In this document: positions 46,561-63,809 of the stretch, in pieces
Position numbering within the stretch: position 1 is the first letter of the stretch
Layout: each line of letters begins with the position of its first letter
Source: a virus
Reading direction: 5' to 3' (one strand)
DNA length: 64,000 bases
Virus record (IMG/VR): IMGVR_UViG_3300020419_000009
Location: 1 to 64,000 of that record
Position numbers and translations under genes: made by a program
The notes under the pieces: generated by a model
The model's input: the letters and a program-made list of their open reading frames with translations, nothing else
Databases searched by the model: none
Told to the model about the DNA's origin: nothing

Positions 46561-46908
46561 ATGGATAAATCTTTAGACAAAGCCCTTGATTTCTCTAACT
46601 ATATGGTTACGTTTAATAACCAAAAACGCATTATCCATGAAGAATATTTAGAAGATTTGGTAGTGTATCAAAATGGCGGCAAGTTTACTGTAGATAAAGA
46701 GCTAATTTGTTTTGCTAATCATCTAAATGAAAAGGTTGAAACCAAAGTAGTACTGATAGATGACAACAATATACCTGTTGTAATTGAAGACTTGCAAAAA
46801 TTTCTACATGATATTACATCAACATATAGCGAAGCATCTCGAGTATACTATGACAAATATAAAAAAATGATAGACAAGAGAAGTGTGGAAAGTTTAGTTA
46901 ATGTCTAA
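46561..46908 (+). CDS. hypothetical protein
   Basis: 115 aa; AGGAG RBS; TAAATA at 46528-46533. Confidence 0.7.
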   Translation: MDKSLDKALDFSNYMVTFNNQKRIIHEEYLEDLVVYQNGGKFTVDKELICFANHLNEKVETKVVLIDDNNIPVVIEDLQKFLHDITSTYSEASRVYYDKYKKMIDKRSVESLVNV

Positions 46909-47734
46909 TGGGGTTTTATTGTTTGCAAATAATAATGGCAAGGTTGATTACTTAAAACAAGCAATTTTTTTGGCTAAGAGAGTAAAAGAATATCTTGGTG
47001 TTCCTGTATCTCTAGCAACCAGCAGTAAAAGAAAGCTAACGTATTCTTATGAAAAGGATATGGATCTTTTTGATAAGATAATTGAGATTCCAGATTCTTA
47101 TGAAAATACAAAACGTTATTACGACGGAACTTTGGACCACCAATACCTTTTGTTTAAAAATTATAGTAGAATAGATAGTTATGATATATCACCTTACAGT
47201 AAAACTCTTGTAATGGATACAGATTACATACTCTGTAACGATGATCTTAAACAAGCATTTACATCGAATACCGATTTTCAAATTTATAAAAAAGGAGTAG
47301 ATGTTTGCGGTTGGAGAGAATACAATGAGTTTAATTACATTAATAAAATAGGTATACCTTTTTATTGGGCAACATGTTTTTGTTTCAAAAAAACAGAAAA
47401 TACAAAAATATTTTTTGAATTAATGAAACATTTAGAGAAAAATTGGATTCATTATTCTAAAATATATAATTTAGGAAGTAAAAATTTCAGAAACGATCAT
47501 GTGTTTAGTATTGCAATACATATGATGAACGGATTTGAAGATAGTGACTGGGCAAAAATATTACCCGGTAAGATGTTTTATACGTTAGATAGAGATAAAA
47601 TTTACAAAATTGATAAAGATAAATTAACATTCCTAGTAGAAAAACAAAATAGATCAGGCGAATATACATTAGCCTCTACTAATAAGTCAAATGTGCATGT
47701 TATGAATAAATTCAGTTTGGAAAAATTAATATGA
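46901..47734 (+). CDS. GT-A fold glycosyltransferase-like protein
   Basis: GVLLFA, YLKQA, ISPYSKTLVMDTDY (DxD), FRNDHVFSIA. Confidence 0.65.
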   Translation: MSNGVLLFANNNGKVDYLKQAIFLAKRVKEYLGVPVSLATSSKRKLTYSYEKDMDLFDKIIEIPDSYENTKRYYDGTLDHQYLLFKNYSRIDSYDISPYSKTLVMDTDYILCNDDLKQAFTSNTDFQIYKKGVDVCGWREYNEFNYINKIGIPFYWATCFCFKKTENTKIFFELMKHLEKNWIHYSKIYNLGSKNFRNDHVFSIAIHMMNGFEDSDWAKILPGKMFYTLDRDKIYKIDKDKLTFLVEKQNRSGEYTLASTNKSNVHVMNKFSLEKLI

Positions 47735-48546
47735 AGAAAGGTTATCTATTAATAGCAAGTGGTAAAGAATATGTAAAGCAGGCTTGTTTATGTGCAATGA
47801 GCATCAAAGCCACACAAAAAATAAAAAACGTTTCTTTAGCAACCAATGACTTTGTTCCAAGAAAATATGCATCGTTGTTTGATGAAATTATAGAAATACC
47901 TTGGGTAGATATGAATTTTGCGGCAACTTCTTATATTGCAGAACAACGATGGAAAGCATTTCATATTACACCGTACGAAGAAACTGTTCTGTTAGATACT
48001 GATATGATATTTTTAAGCGAGGTTAGTCATTGGTGGAAATACTTGAGCAAACAAGATATATGTTTTACAAATAATGTATTTTCTTATAGAAATCAAAAGG
48101 TTACAAGTGATTTTTATAGAAAAGCGTTTTCAGAAAATAATTTACCTAGTGTGTACTGTGCGTTTCATTATTTTAAACAGAACGATACATGTTTAAAATA
48201 TTATAAAACATTAGAAAACATTTGTAAAGATTTTGAAAGTTATTATAAGAAATATATTGTAAAATCAAGACCAGAACTATCTAGTATGGATATAAATCAT
48301 GCCCTTGCTTGTTTAATAACAGATACAAATACTAATACATGCGAGTGTTTAAATTTTGTGCATATGAAAAGTAAAGTACAAGATATTGAAAACATATCGT
48401 CTAATTGGTCTGATAGTTTACCTTATTACTTTACTGATGATTTAAAATTAAAAATAGGAAACTATTTACAACATGGAATATTTCATTACACAGAAAACAA
48501 GTTCTGTAATGATGTAATAGCAAAGTATGAAAAGGCAGTACTATGA
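47731..48546 (+). CDS. GT-A fold glycosyltransferase-like protein, paralogue of 46901..47734
   Basis: GYLLIA, YVKQA, ITPYEETVLLDTDM (DxD), FVHMK. Confidence 0.65.
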   Translation: MKKGYLLIASGKEYVKQACLCAMSIKATQKIKNVSLATNDFVPRKYASLFDEIIEIPWVDMNFAATSYIAEQRWKAFHITPYEETVLLDTDMIFLSEVSHWWKYLSKQDICFTNNVFSYRNQKVTSDFYRKAFSENNLPSVYCAFHYFKQNDTCLKYYKTLENICKDFESYYKKYIVKSRPELSSMDINHALACLITDTNTNTCECLNFVHMKSKVQDIENISSNWSDSLPYYFTDDLKLKIGNYLQHGIFHYTENKFCNDVIAKYEKAVL

Positions 48547-49085
48547 AACACGAAAAAGTTCATACACCACAATATGTATCTTTTGATCAAAAAACAGGAG
48601 AAGTTTTCTGTATTGGGCCAACAATTCAAGAAGGCTACCAATACATAGAAGTTTCTGATGAACAGATTGAACCTATTAAAACATTCAAAGATAAGATGAC
48701 AGACTATAAAGTTGTCTATAACAAAAAAGAAAGAATGTTTAAATTAAAGAAACTTGTAGTTATTGAAGAAGATATTACATACCAAAAAATAGAAAAGTAT
48801 CAAAATGAAGAAATGGATTTTGATGTACTTTTAAACATTGATAAAAACAAGAAATCATGTTATATTGATACAAGCGAAGAATTATTAGATATAATGCAGA
48901 AAACTAACGTGGAACATAAAAATATTACATTTAGTTTTACTAAAAAAGATGATCCACATATTTTATATGATATGGTTACTTTTGAAATAAACAAAAATAG
49001 TAAACAGTCTATAAAAATACCAAAGCAATATGACGTTTATTCTAATAGTGATATGGCAAAATGTATGTACGGAGAAGTTAAATGA
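48543..49085 (+). CDS. hypothetical protein
   Basis: 180 aa, ATGA-coupled to both neighbours. Confidence 0.7.
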   Translation: MKHEKVHTPQYVSFDQKTGEVFCIGPTIQEGYQYIEVSDEQIEPIKTFKDKMTDYKVVYNKKERMFKLKKLVVIEEDITYQKIEKYQNEEMDFDVLLNIDKNKKSCYIDTSEELLDIMQKTNVEHKNITFSFTKKDDPHILYDMVTFEINKNSKQSIKIPKQYDVYSNSDMAKCMYGEVK

Positions 49086-61959: not shown

Positions 61960-61988
61960 TTGCAATCTTTTCAAAAAGGTGTTATAAT
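61960..61988 (+). promoter_or_regulatory. sigma70-type promoter with extended -10, 5 nt before ATG 61994
   Basis: TTGCAA (61960-65), 17-nt spacer, TG-n-TATAAT (TATAAT at 61983-88). Confidence 0.7.
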
Positions 61989-61993
61989 ATATT

Positions 61994-63112
61994 ATGTCTG
62001 AAGATTTAAAATGGAGTAGTTATGATTTTTCTAAAATACCGTTTGACGAAATTGTTAAAGTCGGACAGAGGACGCTTATATACAGAGATTTGTTTACTGT
62101 TAGTTGGCTTCTTGGTCGCTTTTGCAACTATAGGTGCAGTTATTGTTGGCCATACGCCAGATCAGATAAAAAAGATCACAGGCCCACACAGCTCTGTTGT
62201 GATACGATCGATGAGATAAAGAGACAGGCCCGTGACAACAATTTTAATAGTTTCCATTTTTCTTTTTCTGGTGGTGAGCCTACTTTTCACCCTGGTTACA
62301 ACGATCTTCTACGGCATCTTGCTAATGATATTAATAATACCAATTATACTTCTATTCATATGACAAGTAATTGTAGTCGTAAATTAAAATGGTTTCAAGA
62401 GTACACTGAAATAGCAAAAGCATTTCATCGTGCTAGTATTACAGCAAGTTTACACACAGAACACGTTAACACTCCACAAAAAATGCAAGACTTTGCAGAC
62501 AAGCTGATACATTGTCAAGAACAAGACGTCCAAGTCACAATAAACATGGTTATGGTACCAGAAATATTTGAAAAGAGTTGGGAAAACGCATTGTTCTTTC
62601 ATGAACAAGGAATTAACGTTACATTAAAACCACAAAGTGATCCTACAGCAAGTTTTGTTGTTAGTGGATACACGGAAGAACAAATGAAGTTGTTACATAA
62701 TGGTATGCCACAGAGAGGGTACACAGAAGTTAAACGTAAGTGGTCTGGTAGACCTAAAGCCCAATGGAAAAGTTGGAAACAGTTTAATACAAAAGAATCA
62801 GTACCTGCACACTTCCAGGTCGAGTTTGAAGATAAAGACGGTAAGAAATGGTACATGGATCAAGCTGAAAGATTTAATGCTTTTAATTTTAACAAGTTTA
62901 AAGGTTGGTCATGTAATGCAGGATATAGTGGAATAATAATTAGAGAACCAGACGGCAGTATCAAAAGATCATACAGTTGTAGAGATGTCCCATTAGGAAA
63001 TATCGAAACAGGCTTTAAATTATTTGATAAGCCTATGCCGTGTATAACAGATAGTTGTGTTAGTAGTGCTGATAGTAAAATACCTAAACAAAAGATTGCT
63101 GAAACTATTTAA
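61994..63112 (+). CDS. radical SAM protein, same sub-type as 58033..59223
   Basis: W.LGRFCNYRCSYC, FSGGEPT; FKGWSCNAG..YSC..PCITDSC. Confidence 0.88.
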   Translation: MSEDLKWSSYDFSKIPFDEIVKVGQRTLIYRDLFTVSWLLGRFCNYRCSYCWPYARSDKKDHRPTQLCCDTIDEIKRQARDNNFNSFHFSFSGGEPTFHPGYNDLLRHLANDINNTNYTSIHMTSNCSRKLKWFQEYTEIAKAFHRASITASLHTEHVNTPQKMQDFADKLIHCQEQDVQVTINMVMVPEIFEKSWENALFFHEQGINVTLKPQSDPTASFVVSGYTEEQMKLLHNGMPQRGYTEVKRKWSGRPKAQWKSWKQFNTKESVPAHFQVEFEDKDGKKWYMDQAERFNAFNFNKFKGWSCNAGYSGIIIREPDGSIKRSYSCRDVPLGNIETGFKLFDKPMPCITDSCVSSADSKIPKQKIAETI

Positions 63113-63809
63113 TTATTTCCACTGGTATACTTTTATCGTAAGAAGGTGCTTTGTCAAAATATGATTTACCAAATCTTGCGTTTTCAGAATTATTTTCTTT
63201 TACAATCATACGCGGGTGAAAGCCAACTCCTTTATCAATAACTTGTCTATGATATGGTCCGGGTAGTCCTACACCCAAAGTTAATTGTGGTTTTGCAATA
63301 TCTTTTCCGGTAAATTCTTTTAATAATTTTTCAGCTTGTTTATCATCAAAACACCTACAGAATCCTGATTTATAGCCTAAGTAATTAGCACCAAGTGCCG
63401 CCGCTCCTGCACTTATACCTATTTCTAGCATTGTTTGTTGAAAAATGTTTTTTATATCTTTTTCTCTCATGCCTTTAGTCTTACCCATTTTCTTCCTTAC
63501 GTCACTTGTAGAATTGAATGACCACATCATAAGCATGGGAGCATTGGTTTGTGAATTTCTATGTTCAACAAAAAAATCCTTCTTTGGATCTATAGCAATT
63601 TTAAAGAAGCTGTTGTTAAATTTTTGGTTAATACTTACTATTAGTTTATATGACTCTATGTTTTGTTTTGTTGGCATATTGGTACAGACCTGTATTATAG
63701 TATCAATGTCCTGTTGTGGTATTGGTGTGTAATCCCAATTACGCTGGCATCGTTCTGCACCTAAACTTGCTTTCAAAATTTGTTTGTGACGTTTCATATC
63801 TGATTGCAT
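63105..63809 (-). CDS. nitroreductase-family protein
   Basis: RCQRNWD, PTKQN, IGISAG...LGANYLGYKSGFCRCF, LGVG.P. Confidence 0.7.
   Translation of the reverse strand: MQSDMKRHKQILKASLGAERCQRNWDYTPIPQQDIDTIIQVCTNMPTKQNIESYKLIVSINQKFNNSFFKIAIDPKKDFFVEHRNSQTNAPMLMMWSFNSTSDVRKKMGKTKGMREKDIKNIFQQTMLEIGISAGAAALGANYLGYKSGFCRCFDDKQAEKLLKEFTGKDIAKPQLTLGVGLPGPYHRQVIDKGVGFHPRMIVKENNSENARFGKSYFDKAPSYDKSIPVEIIK

What the first reader, a model, noticed from the sequence alone, without database searches (positions are those of the whole stretch)
46561..63809. 17-kb phage modification island: 9 radical SAM enzymes, 4 glycosyltransferases, methyltransferase, kinase, QueC-like enzyme and nitroreductase
Seen: a nearly gapless, translationally coupled run directly after the tail fibres, opened by a late TAAATA (46528) with an internal TAAGTA (56624). 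Nine CxxxCxxC proteins all carry extra Cys clusters. No gap exists for a precursor peptide. Established: twitch/SPASM radical SAM enzymes include sugar/cyclitol dehydrogenases and epimerases (BtrN, NeoN) as well as protein and peptide maturases (anSME, RiPP enzymes). Inference: an uncharacterised pathway that builds a glycan on virion proteins (or on DNA or the host surface) and tailors it by radical chemistry, methylation, phosphorylation and amidation. Late timing and fibre linkage favour virion modification. The Fe-S cost would be large.
Basis: partly seen in the sequence, partly recalled or inferred. Interest (0 to 1): 0.8.

Follow-up and report, generated by a model that had tools for sequence, protein, structure and literature searches.

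The report
Phage radical-SAM sugar-tailoring gene island
Right behind its tail-fibre genes, an uncultured marine giant phage carries nine intact iron-sulfur "radical SAM" enzymes packed together with sugar-transferring and methylating enzymes; the set most likely builds and chemically edits a sugar decoration, but neither the product nor its target has ever been measured.

Summary
Positions 46561-63112 hold 18 overlapping plus-strand genes and one convergent minus-strand nitroreductase gene. Nine of the proteins carry CxxxCxxC, and they fall into three old subfamilies. A: N-terminal twitch, NCBIfam NF033640 (three genes). B: C-terminal Cys domain (four genes). C: viperin/MoaA-like core (two genes).

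Four glycosyltransferase-fold genes and a class I methyltransferase are supported by profile or fold. The kinase and the QueC-like enzyme are supported only by motifs. The promoter claims do not hold. The island runs on beyond the window to about 76.3 kb of the contig.

New here: in hundreds of relatives, the two GT-A genes and the methyltransferase are one GT-GT-methyltransferase protein. That is the domain order of chlorovirus PBCV-1 A064R, which builds the capsid glycan. One radical SAM of each subfamily, plus the GT-A and the methyltransferase, forms a core. This core also lies in chromosomes of Bdellovibrionota, which hold 9-16 NF033640 copies each.

Best reading (about 0.45): a soluble, late-expressed cassette that builds a glycan and edits it by radical chemistry, probably on virion or fibre proteins. 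The chemistry and the target are untested.

This scan has met the same kind of island many times on other DNA. The literature notes such radical SAM arrays only in passing.

The parts
46561..46908 (+). Small conserved protein (115 aa) of unknown function that heads the island
   Evidence: No Pfam or PHROG match. 23 orthologues at 32-48% identity always sit between fibre-operon gene 45610 and the GT8-like pair. Predicted complex with 46901: weak support only, score 0.55 against a best control of 0.00.
46901..47734 (+). GT8-like (glycogenin-like) GT-A glycosyltransferase, paralogue 1
   Evidence: Family profile against PDB hits glycogenin-1 at E 1.1e-4 across the DxD motif. D106 and D108 are invariant. 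Pfam is silent.
47731..48546 (+). GT8-like glycosyltransferase, paralogue 2
   Evidence: Its N-terminus is 33% identical to 46901 and it is in the same profile.
48543..49085 (+). Variable protein of unknown function (180 aa)
   Evidence: Only 2 orthologues among about 130 loci. Weak PHROG tail-fibre match, E 0.008.
49082..50002 (+). GT-A-fold transferase with a helical C-terminal domain (core gene, GT-A1)
   Evidence: AF2 model pLDDT 89. Residues 2-177 have a GT-A fold, VIA Z 10.2. Foldseek hits include ThuS/SunS, PBCV-1 A64R domain 1 and TarP. D63-x-D65 is invariant. It is fused to GT-A2 and the methyltransferase in relatives.
50004..51398 (+). Radical SAM, subfamily A (N-terminal twitch, NF033640)
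   Evidence: NF033640 at 311 bits (cut-off 170). CxxxCxxC at 140. 33% identical to Ralstonia phage RsoM2USA gp202. Groups with Bdellovibrionota paralogues.
51382..52077 (+). GT-A-fold transferase, paralogue of 49082 (core gene, GT-A2)
   Evidence: 32% identical to 49082. Shares the DxD motif. Orthologues lie in Bdellovibrionota at 37-45% identity.
52064..52900 (+). Class I SAM-dependent methyltransferase with an N-terminal helical domain (core gene)
   Evidence: AF2 model pLDDT 93. Foldseek probability 1.0 to many class I methyltransferases. It is the C-terminal domain of the GT-GT-methyltransferase fusions.
52901..53446 (+). Small protein-kinase-like-fold candidate (accessory gene)
   Evidence: Has K24, HNDxKLxN and IDxD motifs. 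The nearest Atlas clusters carry APH, RIO1 or Kdo families, scores 0.95-0.97. No Pfam or PDB support.
53439..54515 (+). Radical SAM, subfamily B (C-terminal Cys domain); core member
   Evidence: CxxxCxxC at 18. C66, C255, C274, C275, C342 and C346 are invariant. Orthologues are 70% identical in phage loci and 42-48% in Bdellovibrionota.
54512..55564 (+). Radical SAM, subfamily B
   Evidence: CxxxCxxC at 17. 26% identical to 53439.
55561..56637 (+). Radical SAM, subfamily B
   Evidence: CxxxCxxC at 21. 34% identical to 60314. No Pfam hit, but a partial NF033640 core match at E 9e-11.
56634..58043 (+). Radical SAM, subfamily A (NF033640); the most conserved gene of the island
   Evidence: NF033640 at 421 bits. 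SPASM/twitch Pfam match lies N-terminal (residues 12-97) to the core at 149. Median 82% identity in 127 loci. More than 3200 clusters in the protein database. 53-61% identical in Bdellovibrionota.
58033..59223 (+). Radical SAM, subfamily C (viperin/MoaA-like core)
   Evidence: Pfam 51.2 bits. The profile's nearest solved chains are viperin-like enzymes and MoaA, matching the core only.
59220..60329 (+). Radical SAM, subfamily A (NF033640)
   Evidence: NF033640 at 187 bits.
60314..61270 (+). Radical SAM, subfamily B, with a recognisable SPASM domain
   Evidence: PF04055 at 36.4 bits and PF13186 at 25.7 bits (residues 217-269). 26-29% identical to CP220 gp080, gp083 and gp084.
61267..61956 (+). 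PP-loop ATP pyrophosphatase of QueC-like build (adenylating or amidating enzyme candidate)
   Evidence: SGGADS and the C201/C212/C215/C218 cluster are invariant. QueC Pfam scores below its cut-off. Relatives carry up to three paralogues per island.
61994..63112 (+). Radical SAM, subfamily C; core member
   Evidence: Pfam 50.2 bits. 78% identical in phage loci and 59-66% in Bdellovibrionota. It follows the only intergenic gap, which holds a sigma-70-like site with an extended -10 at 61960-61988.
63105..63809 (-). Nitroreductase-family flavoenzyme, convergent with 61994 (accessory gene)
   Evidence: PF00881 at 30.3 bits. 33 homologues in related loci, on either strand.

Best explanation
The island is a soluble, cytoplasmic glycan-building and glycan-editing cassette of a jumbo T4/Rak2-like marine phage. 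It is probably transcribed late together with the tail-fibre operon.

Proposed steps: two GT8-like and two GT-A transferases add sugars to an acceptor, and the methyltransferase caps them. In relatives, GT-A1, GT-A2 and the methyltransferase are one polypeptide. The nine radical SAM enzymes (three old subfamilies, each with an auxiliary Fe-S domain) then alter the sugars or the linkage residues by hydrogen-atom abstraction: epimerisation, oxidation, dehydration, C-C or C-methyl chemistry. A PP-loop enzyme, a small kinase-like protein, a flavoenzyme and, downstream, a PLP enzyme, a B12 radical SAM and Fe/2OG oxygenases add further edits.

The most likely acceptor is a virion (fibre-module) protein, by analogy with PBCV-1 A064R.

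Shown: gene content, folds, fusions, conservation and synteny. Inferred: the substrate class, the order of steps, the timing and the target.
For: 1. Four of the ten non-radical-SAM genes have glycosyltransferase folds or profiles.
2. Rosetta-stone fusion: in L029, and in more than 520 database clusters, 49082-like GT-A, 51382-like GT-A and the 52064 methyltransferase form one protein of 800-1200 aa. This is the GT-GT-methyltransferase order of PBCV-1 A064R, which builds the methylated end of the capsid glycan in the cytoplasm (PMC9614988). A064R domain 1 is among the top Foldseek hits of the 49082 model (E 2e-4, probability 1.0).
3. Radical SAMs of these subfamilies sit next to glycosyltransferases in three independent settings:
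   - the core of GT-A, methyltransferase and radical SAM A, B and C in Bdellovibrionota chromosomes;
   - a GT2-GT2-rSAM-A-rSAM-A operon conserved in two Bdellovibrionota genomes;
   - subfamily-B radical SAMs followed by two nucleotide-diphospho-sugar-transferase-fold genes in Campylobacter phage CP220.
4. All island proteins lack membrane segments, and there is no lipid-carrier transferase, flippase or polymerase. This fits a cytoplasmic acceptor.
5. The order fibre 44117, 45610, 46561, GT8, GT8, GT-A is conserved in up to 27 loci. There is no terminator-like site between the fibre genes and the island, and a consensus TATAAATA lies at 44081.
6. No precursor peptide and no RiPP recognition domain was found, and no equivalog cut-off was reached.
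7. The predicted complex of 46901 with 46561 scored 0.55 against a best control of 0.00. That mark was reached by 58 of 80 solved complexes and 2 of 110 mismatched pairs. At 0.60 or under, however, it was reached by only 7 of those 80 and by both mismatches that passed. Runs agree in at least 0% of contacts; partner pLDDT is at least 74. This is weak support only.
Against: - No radical SAM here is close to any characterised sugar-modifying radical SAM. Only the shared core aligns.
- The window holds no nucleotide-sugar synthesis gene.
- In five Bdellovibrionota genomes, NDP-sugar epimerase/dehydratase and DegT genes are not enriched near NF033640 genes (3 observed, 3.15 expected, of 65).
- The GT-A fold is shared with nucleotidyltransferases (IspD and MobA at Z 8.4-8.9).
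- The same core sits in bacterial chromosomes, so the target need not be a virion.
- The neighbours include a fatty-acid desaturase and LpxO-type hydroxylase-like genes, which would also fit a lipid target.
- Timing is inferred, not measured.
Confidence: 0.45

Rival explanations
1. Protein or peptide side-chain maturation. The radical SAM enzymes act directly on residues of a virion or host protein (cross-links, epimerisation, oxidation, as anSME or RiPP maturases do). The glycosyltransferases only add sugars to the same protein.
For: SPASM/twitch auxiliary domains are typical of peptide and protein maturases. Weak NCBIfam and PDB matches go to SkfB, CteB, anSME and PapB. Top Foldseek hits of the GT-A model include the peptide S-glycosyltransferases ThuS and SunS. 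Asp/Asn beta-hydroxylase-like genes lie downstream. Earlier scan notes describe related islands built around Cys-His-tailed small proteins.
Against: There is no precursor-sized ORF or gap. No Cys-His-tail motif occurs in the 99-kb contig or in about 200 related loci. No PqqD/RRE domain was detected, and the CxxxCxxC motif starts at residues 17-24 in subfamily B. All maturase equivalog cut-offs are missed by a wide margin.
Confidence: 0.2
2. Host-envelope remodelling. The island alters host LPS, capsule or membrane lipid during infection, to block superinfection or change the cell surface, as proposed for glycosyltransferases in the 'host recognition cluster' of pelagimyophages.
For: PMC7029224 places glycosyltransferases and radical SAM cassettes in this hypervariable region and favours O-chain modification. 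The GT8 family is mostly LPS-related. A fatty-acid desaturase and LpxO-like hydroxylases lie downstream, and a desaturase sits next to the 56634 orthologue in one Bdellovibrionota genome. The bacterial chromosomal copies suggest a cellular target.
Against: No island protein within the window has a membrane segment, and there is no lipid-carrier transferase, flippase, polymerase or ligase. Late co-transcription with fibre genes would be late for exclusion.
Confidence: 0.15
3. Nucleotide or DNA hypermodification. The enzymes build a modified base or a sugar-decorated base, linked to the 7-deazaguanine system elsewhere on the contig.
For: Subfamily C is nearest to the nucleotide-acting viperin and MoaA cores. 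61267 is built like QueC, and no other QueC is on the contig. The GT-A fold includes nucleotidyltransferases.
Against: The island is joined to fibre genes, not to the replication genes where the deazaguanine set lies. QueC-like paralogues occur up to three per island in relatives, which does not fit a single QueC role. The island has no transglycosylase or DNA-binding domain.
Confidence: 0.1
4. A diffusible small-molecule product (natural product or cofactor) made for host takeover or competition.
For: The cassette looks like a biosynthetic gene cluster: radical SAMs, a methyltransferase, PLP, B12 and oxygenases. It is equally present in bacterial chromosomes.
Against: There is no exporter, no scaffold-forming enzyme (NRPS, PKS, terpene), and no match to any cofactor pathway equivalog. 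The tight, conserved linkage to fibre genes is unexplained.
Confidence: 0.07

Closest known systems
Chlorovirus PBCV-1 A064R (with A061L): virus-encoded, cytoplasmic glycosylation of the major capsid protein
   Same: Both have the three-domain order GT-A, GT, class I methyltransferase; here it is fused in relatives and split into 49082, 51382 and 52064 in this window. Both are soluble, virus-encoded and hypervariable. A064R domain 1 is a top structural match of the 49082 model.
   Different: There is no detectable sequence homology. The second domain here is a paralogous GT-A, not the A064R-D2 family. PBCV-1 has no radical SAM enzymes. The target here is unknown.
NCBIfam NF033640, N_Twi_rSAM (twitch domain-containing radical SAM protein), an uncharacterised subfamily
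   Same: 50004, 56634 and 59220 pass its cut-off (311, 421 and 187 bits against 170). Their Cys-rich twitch-like domain lies ahead of the CxxxCxxC core.
   Different: The family has no known substrate, so membership gives no function. Six of the nine radical SAMs belong to two other, unnamed subfamilies.
Radical SAM gene arrays of T4-like phages noted in the literature: Campylobacter phages CP220/CPt10 (11-12 radical SAMs, PMC2853527), a marine T4-like environmental genome with 12 (PMC5332604), and radical SAM cassettes in the pelagimyophage host recognition cluster (PMC7029224)
   Same: Many radical SAM genes sit in an interchangeable module of a T4-like phage. CP220 gp080, gp083 and gp084 are subfamily-B homologues (26-29% identity) and are followed by two GT-A-fold genes.
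   Different: Those papers give no function; metabolic help to the host was suggested. CP220 lacks clear NF033640 members and the GT-GT-methyltransferase genes. The portal of this phage is nearest to Rak2/Atu_ph07-like jumbo phages (48-51%).
Sugar-tailoring radical SAM enzymes of natural-product pathways (BtrN, DesII, AprD4, BlsE; named from established knowledge)
   Same: This is the proposed kind of chemistry: hydrogen abstraction on a sugar ring, often with an auxiliary twitch cluster. BlsE (7vob) appears among weak core matches of subfamily B.
   Different: The similarity covers only the common radical SAM core (E 1e-4 or weaker). No equivalog or subfamily match was found, and the twitch domain of subfamily A is at the opposite end.

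Membership tests
Radical SAM superfamily (PF04055) | CxxxCxxC motif that binds the [4Fe-4S] cluster, and a profile match | tested here: met
   The motif is present in all nine. Pfam is over its cut-off for 56634, 58033, 59220, 60314 and 61994. 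It is 24.8-26.8 bits (cut-off 29.5) for 50004, 53439 and 54512. There is no hit for 55561, which is 34% identical to 60314.
NF033640 N_Twi_rSAM | Whole-protein score of at least 170 bits | tested here: met
   56634 scores 421, 50004 scores 311 and 59220 scores 187. The other six score 30-51 bits and are not members.
NF033640 N_Twi_rSAM | Twitch-like Cys cluster N-terminal to the radical SAM core | tested here: met
   Pfam SPASM matches residues 12-97 of 56634, ahead of CxxxCxxC at 149. C12, C93 and C96 are invariant in the three paralogues.
SPASM/twitch radical SAM (PF13186) for subfamilies B and C | C-terminal Cys-rich auxiliary-cluster domain | tested here: inconclusive
   PF13186 passes only for 60314 (25.7 bits). 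Subfamily B has invariant C255, C274, C275, C342 and C346. Subfamily C has only C307 and C329 invariant.
Glycosyltransferase family 8 (glycogenin-like) | GT-A fold with a DxD motif and profile similarity | tested here: inconclusive
   The family profile hits glycogenin at E 1.1e-4 over residues 13-111, including the DxD motif. No Pfam match. No structure model was made.
GT-A fold glycosyltransferases (GT2-like) | Rossmann-like GT-A fold plus a DxD motif | tested here: met
   49082 model: Z 10.2 to 6p61, with ThuS, SunS, A64R and TarP among the hits. D63-x-D65 is invariant. PF00535 is not found on the window proteins, but is precomputed on 2 of the 120 listed fused homologues. Nucleotidyltransferases share the fold at Z 8.4-8.9.
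PBCV-1 A064R-type trifunctional capsid-glycan enzyme | GT, GT and methyltransferase in one chain | tested here: met
   Met in relatives (L029, 1058 aa; more than 520 clusters). In this window it is split into three genes, with radical SAM 50004 inserted.
PBCV-1 A064R-type trifunctional capsid-glycan enzyme | Acts on a glycan of a virion protein | not testable with these tools
   This needs glycoproteomics of virions.
Class I SAM-dependent methyltransferases | Rossmann-type methyltransferase fold with a glycine-rich motif I and an acidic motif II | tested here: met
   Model pLDDT 93, Foldseek probability 1.0 to many methyltransferases. G120 and D143 are invariant. Pfam is silent.
QueC (PF06508) | PP-loop SGGxDS, C-terminal Zn Cys cluster, and a score over the cut-off | tested here: not met
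   The motifs are present and invariant. The score is 20.2 or 15.7 bits against a cut-off of 22, and only the C-terminal 50 residues match. PDB profile matches are weak (NAD synthetase PP-loop, Cap9). It is built like QueC but is not shown to be a member.
Nitroreductase (PF00881) | Score over the cut-off | tested here: met
   30.3 bits against 23.5.
Protein-kinase-like fold kinases (APH, Kdo, RIO) | Beta-3 Lys, HxDxxxxN catalytic loop and a DxD/DFG metal site, with a profile match | tested here: inconclusive
   The motifs are conserved in 5 orthologues. Atlas neighbours carry APH, RIO1 or Kdo. No Pfam or PDB match.
RiPP radical SAM maturase systems | A precursor peptide gene and an RRE/PqqD-like recognition domain | tested here: not met
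   There is no gap or small ORF. No PqqD hit. No equivalog cut-off is reached.
Cys-His-tailed substrate kit (HXS-like reading of earlier scan notes) | A small protein ending in (Cys-His-x-Ser) repeats plus RGRR next to the radical SAMs | tested here: not met
   The motif is absent from all six frames of the 99-kb contig and of about 200 related loci. The contig is only about 26% of the genome.

The most novel reading that the evidence does not exclude
The three radical SAM subfamilies, led by the N-terminal-twitch family NF033640, are a so far unknown class of glycan-editing (or glycan-to-protein cross-linking) enzymes. Abundant marine jumbo phages use them to diversify a sugar coat on their receptor-binding apparatus. 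Predatory Bdellovibrionota, with 9-16 copies per genome, use them on their own surface. That would be a radical-chemistry layer of surface variation shared by two kinds of bacterial predators.
Probability: 0.25. Interest if true: 0.85.

Novelty: new variant of a known kind. Interest (0 to 1): 0.6.

Why it matters
Homologues of the most conserved enzyme (56634) form more than 3200 sequence clusters in public metagenomes, so this is one of the commonest uncharacterised enzyme sets of marine phages.

If it edits a virion glycan, three things would follow:
- It would add radical chemistry to the few known cases of virus-encoded glycosylation.
- It would give a first function to NCBIfam family NF033640.
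- It would explain why a hypervariable enzyme block travels with tail-fibre genes.

Culturable carriers make it testable: Ralstonia phage RsoM2USA, Campylobacter phage CP220 and Bdellovibrio-type bacteria.

Tried and rejected
- Nucleotide search of the island against 50,697 phage records: no match.
- PHROGs on the ten non-radical-SAM proteins: nothing useful.
- Pfam on flanking genes of the Bdellovibrionota core loci: mostly dark, with only an outer-membrane-like TSP_3 protein. Single-copy contexts of the 56634 orthologue are unrelated housekeeping or mobile genes.
- PDB profile searches for the GT-A family (no hit), the kinase-like family (no significant hit) and the radical SAM subfamilies (core matches only).
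- Enrichment of NDP-sugar genes near NF033640 genes in five bacterial genomes: none.
- Cys-His-tail substrate motif: absent.
- Fe-S assembly genes (IscA, IscU) on the contig: none found in this fragment, which is about 26% complete.
- Sigma-70-like and terminator scans of the island: counts are at or below the shuffled expectation.
- I considered and dropped the idea that this is a pelagimyophage. The portal and baseplate are nearest to Rak2/Atu_ph07-like jumbo phages.

Full report
WHERE THIS IS. The window is the first 64 kb of a 99,399-bp IMG/VR virus record that CheckV rates about 26% complete. It encodes a T4-type portal, a gp55-like late sigma factor, SbcCD, a baseplate hub and wedge, a 4987-aa giant ORF and three fibre proteins. 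The portal and wedge are nearest to Rak2/Atu_ph07-like jumbo phages (48-51% and 35% identity). It is therefore a fragment of an uncultured marine jumbo myophage.

THE OBSERVATION. From 46561 to 63112 there are 18 plus-strand ORFs whose junctions overlap or are at most 1 nt apart. The one exception is a 37-nt gap before 61994. The nineteenth gene, the nitroreductase, is convergent on the minus strand. Nine proteins carry CxxxCxxC and 7-11 further cysteines.

BLASTP and NCBIfam sort the nine into three subfamilies:
- Subfamily A (50004, 56634, 59220) passes NF033640, the 'N-terminal twitch' radical SAM subfamily, with 311, 421 and 187 bits against a cut-off of 170. Pfam places a SPASM-like segment at residues 12-97 of 56634, ahead of the core.
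- Subfamily B (53439, 54512, 55561, 60314) has the motif at residues 17-23 and an invariant C-terminal Cys set.
- Subfamily C (58033, 61994) has a viperin/MoaA-like core.
None of the nine reaches the cut-off of any cofactor or peptide-maturase equivalog.

THE OTHER GENES.
- The 46901/47731 family profile matches glycogenin (GT8) at E 1e-4 across the DxD motif.
- An AlphaFold model of 49082 (pLDDT 89) has a GT-A fold over residues 2-177 (VIA Z 10.2, rmsd 3.1, 137 residues). Its hits include the peptide S-glycosyltransferases ThuS and SunS, PBCV-1 A64R domain 1 and TarP. Nucleotidyltransferases of the same fold follow at Z 8.4-8.9. 51382 is its paralogue.
- The 52064 model (pLDDT 93) is a class I SAM methyltransferase.
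- 52901 has kinase-like motifs, and its Atlas neighbours carry APH, RIO or Kdo families, but it has no profile support.
- 61267 has an invariant SGGADS PP-loop and a QueC-like Cys cluster, but scores below the QueC cut-off.
- The nitroreductase passes Pfam.

PROMOTER CLAIMS. These fail. TAAATA occurs 102 times in the contig. The full TATAAATA occurs five times, and three of those copies sit just upstream of gene starts, including 44081 before fibre gene 44117. No terminator-like site separates the fibre genes from the island.

EXTENT. The island continues beyond the window to about 76.3 kb. That stretch holds TauD, a B12 radical SAM, Asp/Asn-hydroxylase-like and other 2OG oxygenases and a fatty-acid desaturase, plus a short PLP aminotransferase/ACC-synthase-like enzyme (PDB profile E 4e-5). 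It ends at a minus-strand fibre-like gene with an Mtd_N domain.

RELATIVES.
- More than 200 IMG/VR contigs encode a 56634 homologue at over 80% identity, and more than 3200 clusters exist in the protein database.
- Across about 130 fetched loci the conserved core is 49082/51382, 52064, 53439, 54512, 56634, 58033, 60314 and 61994. The first four genes and everything past 63112 vary.
- Wherever upstream DNA is present, the order fibre 44117, 45610, 46561, GT8, GT8, GT-A is kept.
- In many relatives the two GT-A genes and the methyltransferase are one ORF (L029, 1058 aa; more than 520 clusters of 560-2000 aa). This shows that the three act together. The domain order GT, GT, methyltransferase is that of PBCV-1 A064R, the soluble enzyme that builds the methylated end of the chlorovirus capsid glycan (PMC9614988).

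BACTERIAL COPIES.
- A scan of one genome per species found 56634 orthologues at 53-61% identity on chromosomal contigs of Bdellovibrionota, up to 2.49 Mb long. They usually sit with orthologues of 61994 (59-66%), 53439 (42-48%), the GT-A (37-45%) and the methyltransferase (37-47%).
- Five such genomes hold 13, 16, 10, 10 and 9 NF033640 members over the cut-off, against none in 14 control genomes.
- In a tree rooted by long-branch paralogues, the phage 56634 clade (support 99) nests inside the Bdellovibrionota sequences, next to marine Bacteriovoracaceae and Halobacteriovoraceae (support 92). 50004 groups with separate bacterial paralogues (support 100). The subfamilies therefore predate the phage-bacterium split. 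The direction of transfer is tentative.
- Two of the genomes share an operon with this order: class II aaRS-like gene, unknown gene, GT2, GT2 (with Glyco_transf_7C), rSAM-A, rSAM-A.
- NDP-sugar epimerase and DegT genes are not enriched near NF033640 genes (3 observed, 3.15 expected).

LITERATURE. Campylobacter phages CP220 and CPt10 carry 11-12 radical SAM genes in an interchangeable module (PMC2853527). I find that three of the CP220 genes are subfamily-B homologues and that they are followed by two GT-A-fold genes. A marine T4-like environmental genome with 12 radical SAM genes (PMC5332604) and radical SAM cassettes in the pelagimyophage host recognition cluster (PMC7029224) are mentioned without a function. 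A search for 'radical SAM', 'jumbo phage' and 'glycosyltransferase' together found no paper.

INTERPRETATION. Three observations make a cytoplasmic glycan-building and glycan-editing cassette the best-supported reading: the GT-GT-methyltransferase fusion; the recurrence of these radical SAM subfamilies next to glycosyltransferases in four independent settings; and the all-soluble make-up without lipid-carrier machinery. The conserved fibre linkage and the A064R analogy favour a virion protein as acceptor, but nothing here shows it, and the bacterial copies show that the chemistry is not virus-specific.

The small conserved protein 46561 may bind the first GT8-like enzyme. The predicted complex scored 0.55 against a best control of 0.00. 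That mark was reached by 58 of 80 solved complexes and 2 of 110 mismatches, but at 0.60 or under by only 7 of the 80 and by both passing mismatches. Runs agree in at least 0% of contacts, and partner pLDDT is at least 74. This is weak support.

RIVALS. The rivals are direct protein maturation, host-envelope or lipid remodelling, DNA or nucleotide modification, and a small molecule. A RiPP-type system is disfavoured: there is no precursor, no recognition domain, and no Cys-His-tail motif in the contig or in about 200 loci.

STANDING. This scan has reported the same kind of island many times on other genomes. My Bdellovibrionota result came before I read those notes, and it agrees with them. The island is real, widespread and biochemically uncharacterised. 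I rate it a new variant of virus-encoded glycosylation, with moderate-to-high interest.

Noticed in passing
window 24579-39542 (+): A single 4987-aa ORF directly follows the baseplate wedge gene. Pfam sees only an FG-GAP repeat and a weak CBM5/12 segment. It is probably the giant fibre or 'VrlC-like' protein that opens the host recognition cluster.
   Followed up: partly
window 44081 and 6466 (+), 8424 (-): The full T4-type late promoter motif TATAAATA occurs only five times in the 99-kb contig. Three copies lie 20-50 nt upstream of structural gene starts (44117, 6516, 8403). This fits the gp55-like sigma factor at 12534-13409.
   Followed up: partly
window 61960-61988 (+): The only intergenic gap of the island holds a sigma-70-like site, TTGCAA-17-TATAAT, with an extended -10 TG. 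It ends 6 nt before the ATG of 61994 and no Shine-Dalgarno sequence is visible. This may be a separate, possibly leaderless, start for the core subfamily-C radical SAM.
   Followed up: no
contig 63839-77461 (L001:1839-15461), beyond the window: The island continues with about 20 more genes: TauD, a B12-binding radical SAM, a sulfotransferase-like segment, two Asp/Asn-hydroxylase-like proteins, other HxD...H oxygenase-like proteins and a fatty-acid desaturase (the only membrane protein). It ends at a minus-strand fibre-like gene with an Mtd_N domain.
   Followed up: partly
contig 66126-66887 (L001:4126-4887): A 253-aa protein with an SLSK lysine motif matches class I/II aminotransferases and ACC synthase (profile E 4e-5). 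It recurs in 26 phage loci and in the radical SAM clusters of all five Bdellovibrionota genomes examined.
   Followed up: partly
G001-G005 (genomes of L147, L144, L163, L141, L153): Bdellovibrionota genomes of 2.5-4.0 Mb carry 9-16 NF033640 radical SAM genes each, in several clusters around the chromosome. None of 14 well-known control genomes has one.
   Followed up: partly
L029:3925-7101: In the fused GT-GT-methyltransferase protein, a helical segment of about 40 residues from the methyltransferase N-terminus (residues 22-63 of 52064) is repeated about five times in tandem between the GT and methyltransferase parts.
   Followed up: no
L132-L134, L157, L159, L161: Contigs binned into MAGs labelled Flavobacteriaceae, Crocinitomicaceae, Neisseriaceae, Gammaproteobacteria, Acidimicrobiaceae and Chloroflexota carry the phage-type island and group with viral contigs in the tree. 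They are probably phage contigs mis-binned into bacterial genomes.
   Followed up: partly
L212:13245-14435 and L216:10-828: A truncated class II aminoacyl-tRNA-synthetase-like gene (tRNA-synt_2 core only) heads the conserved GT2-GT2-rSAM-A-rSAM-A operon of two Bdellovibrionota genomes. This hints at an amino-acid ligation step.
   Followed up: no
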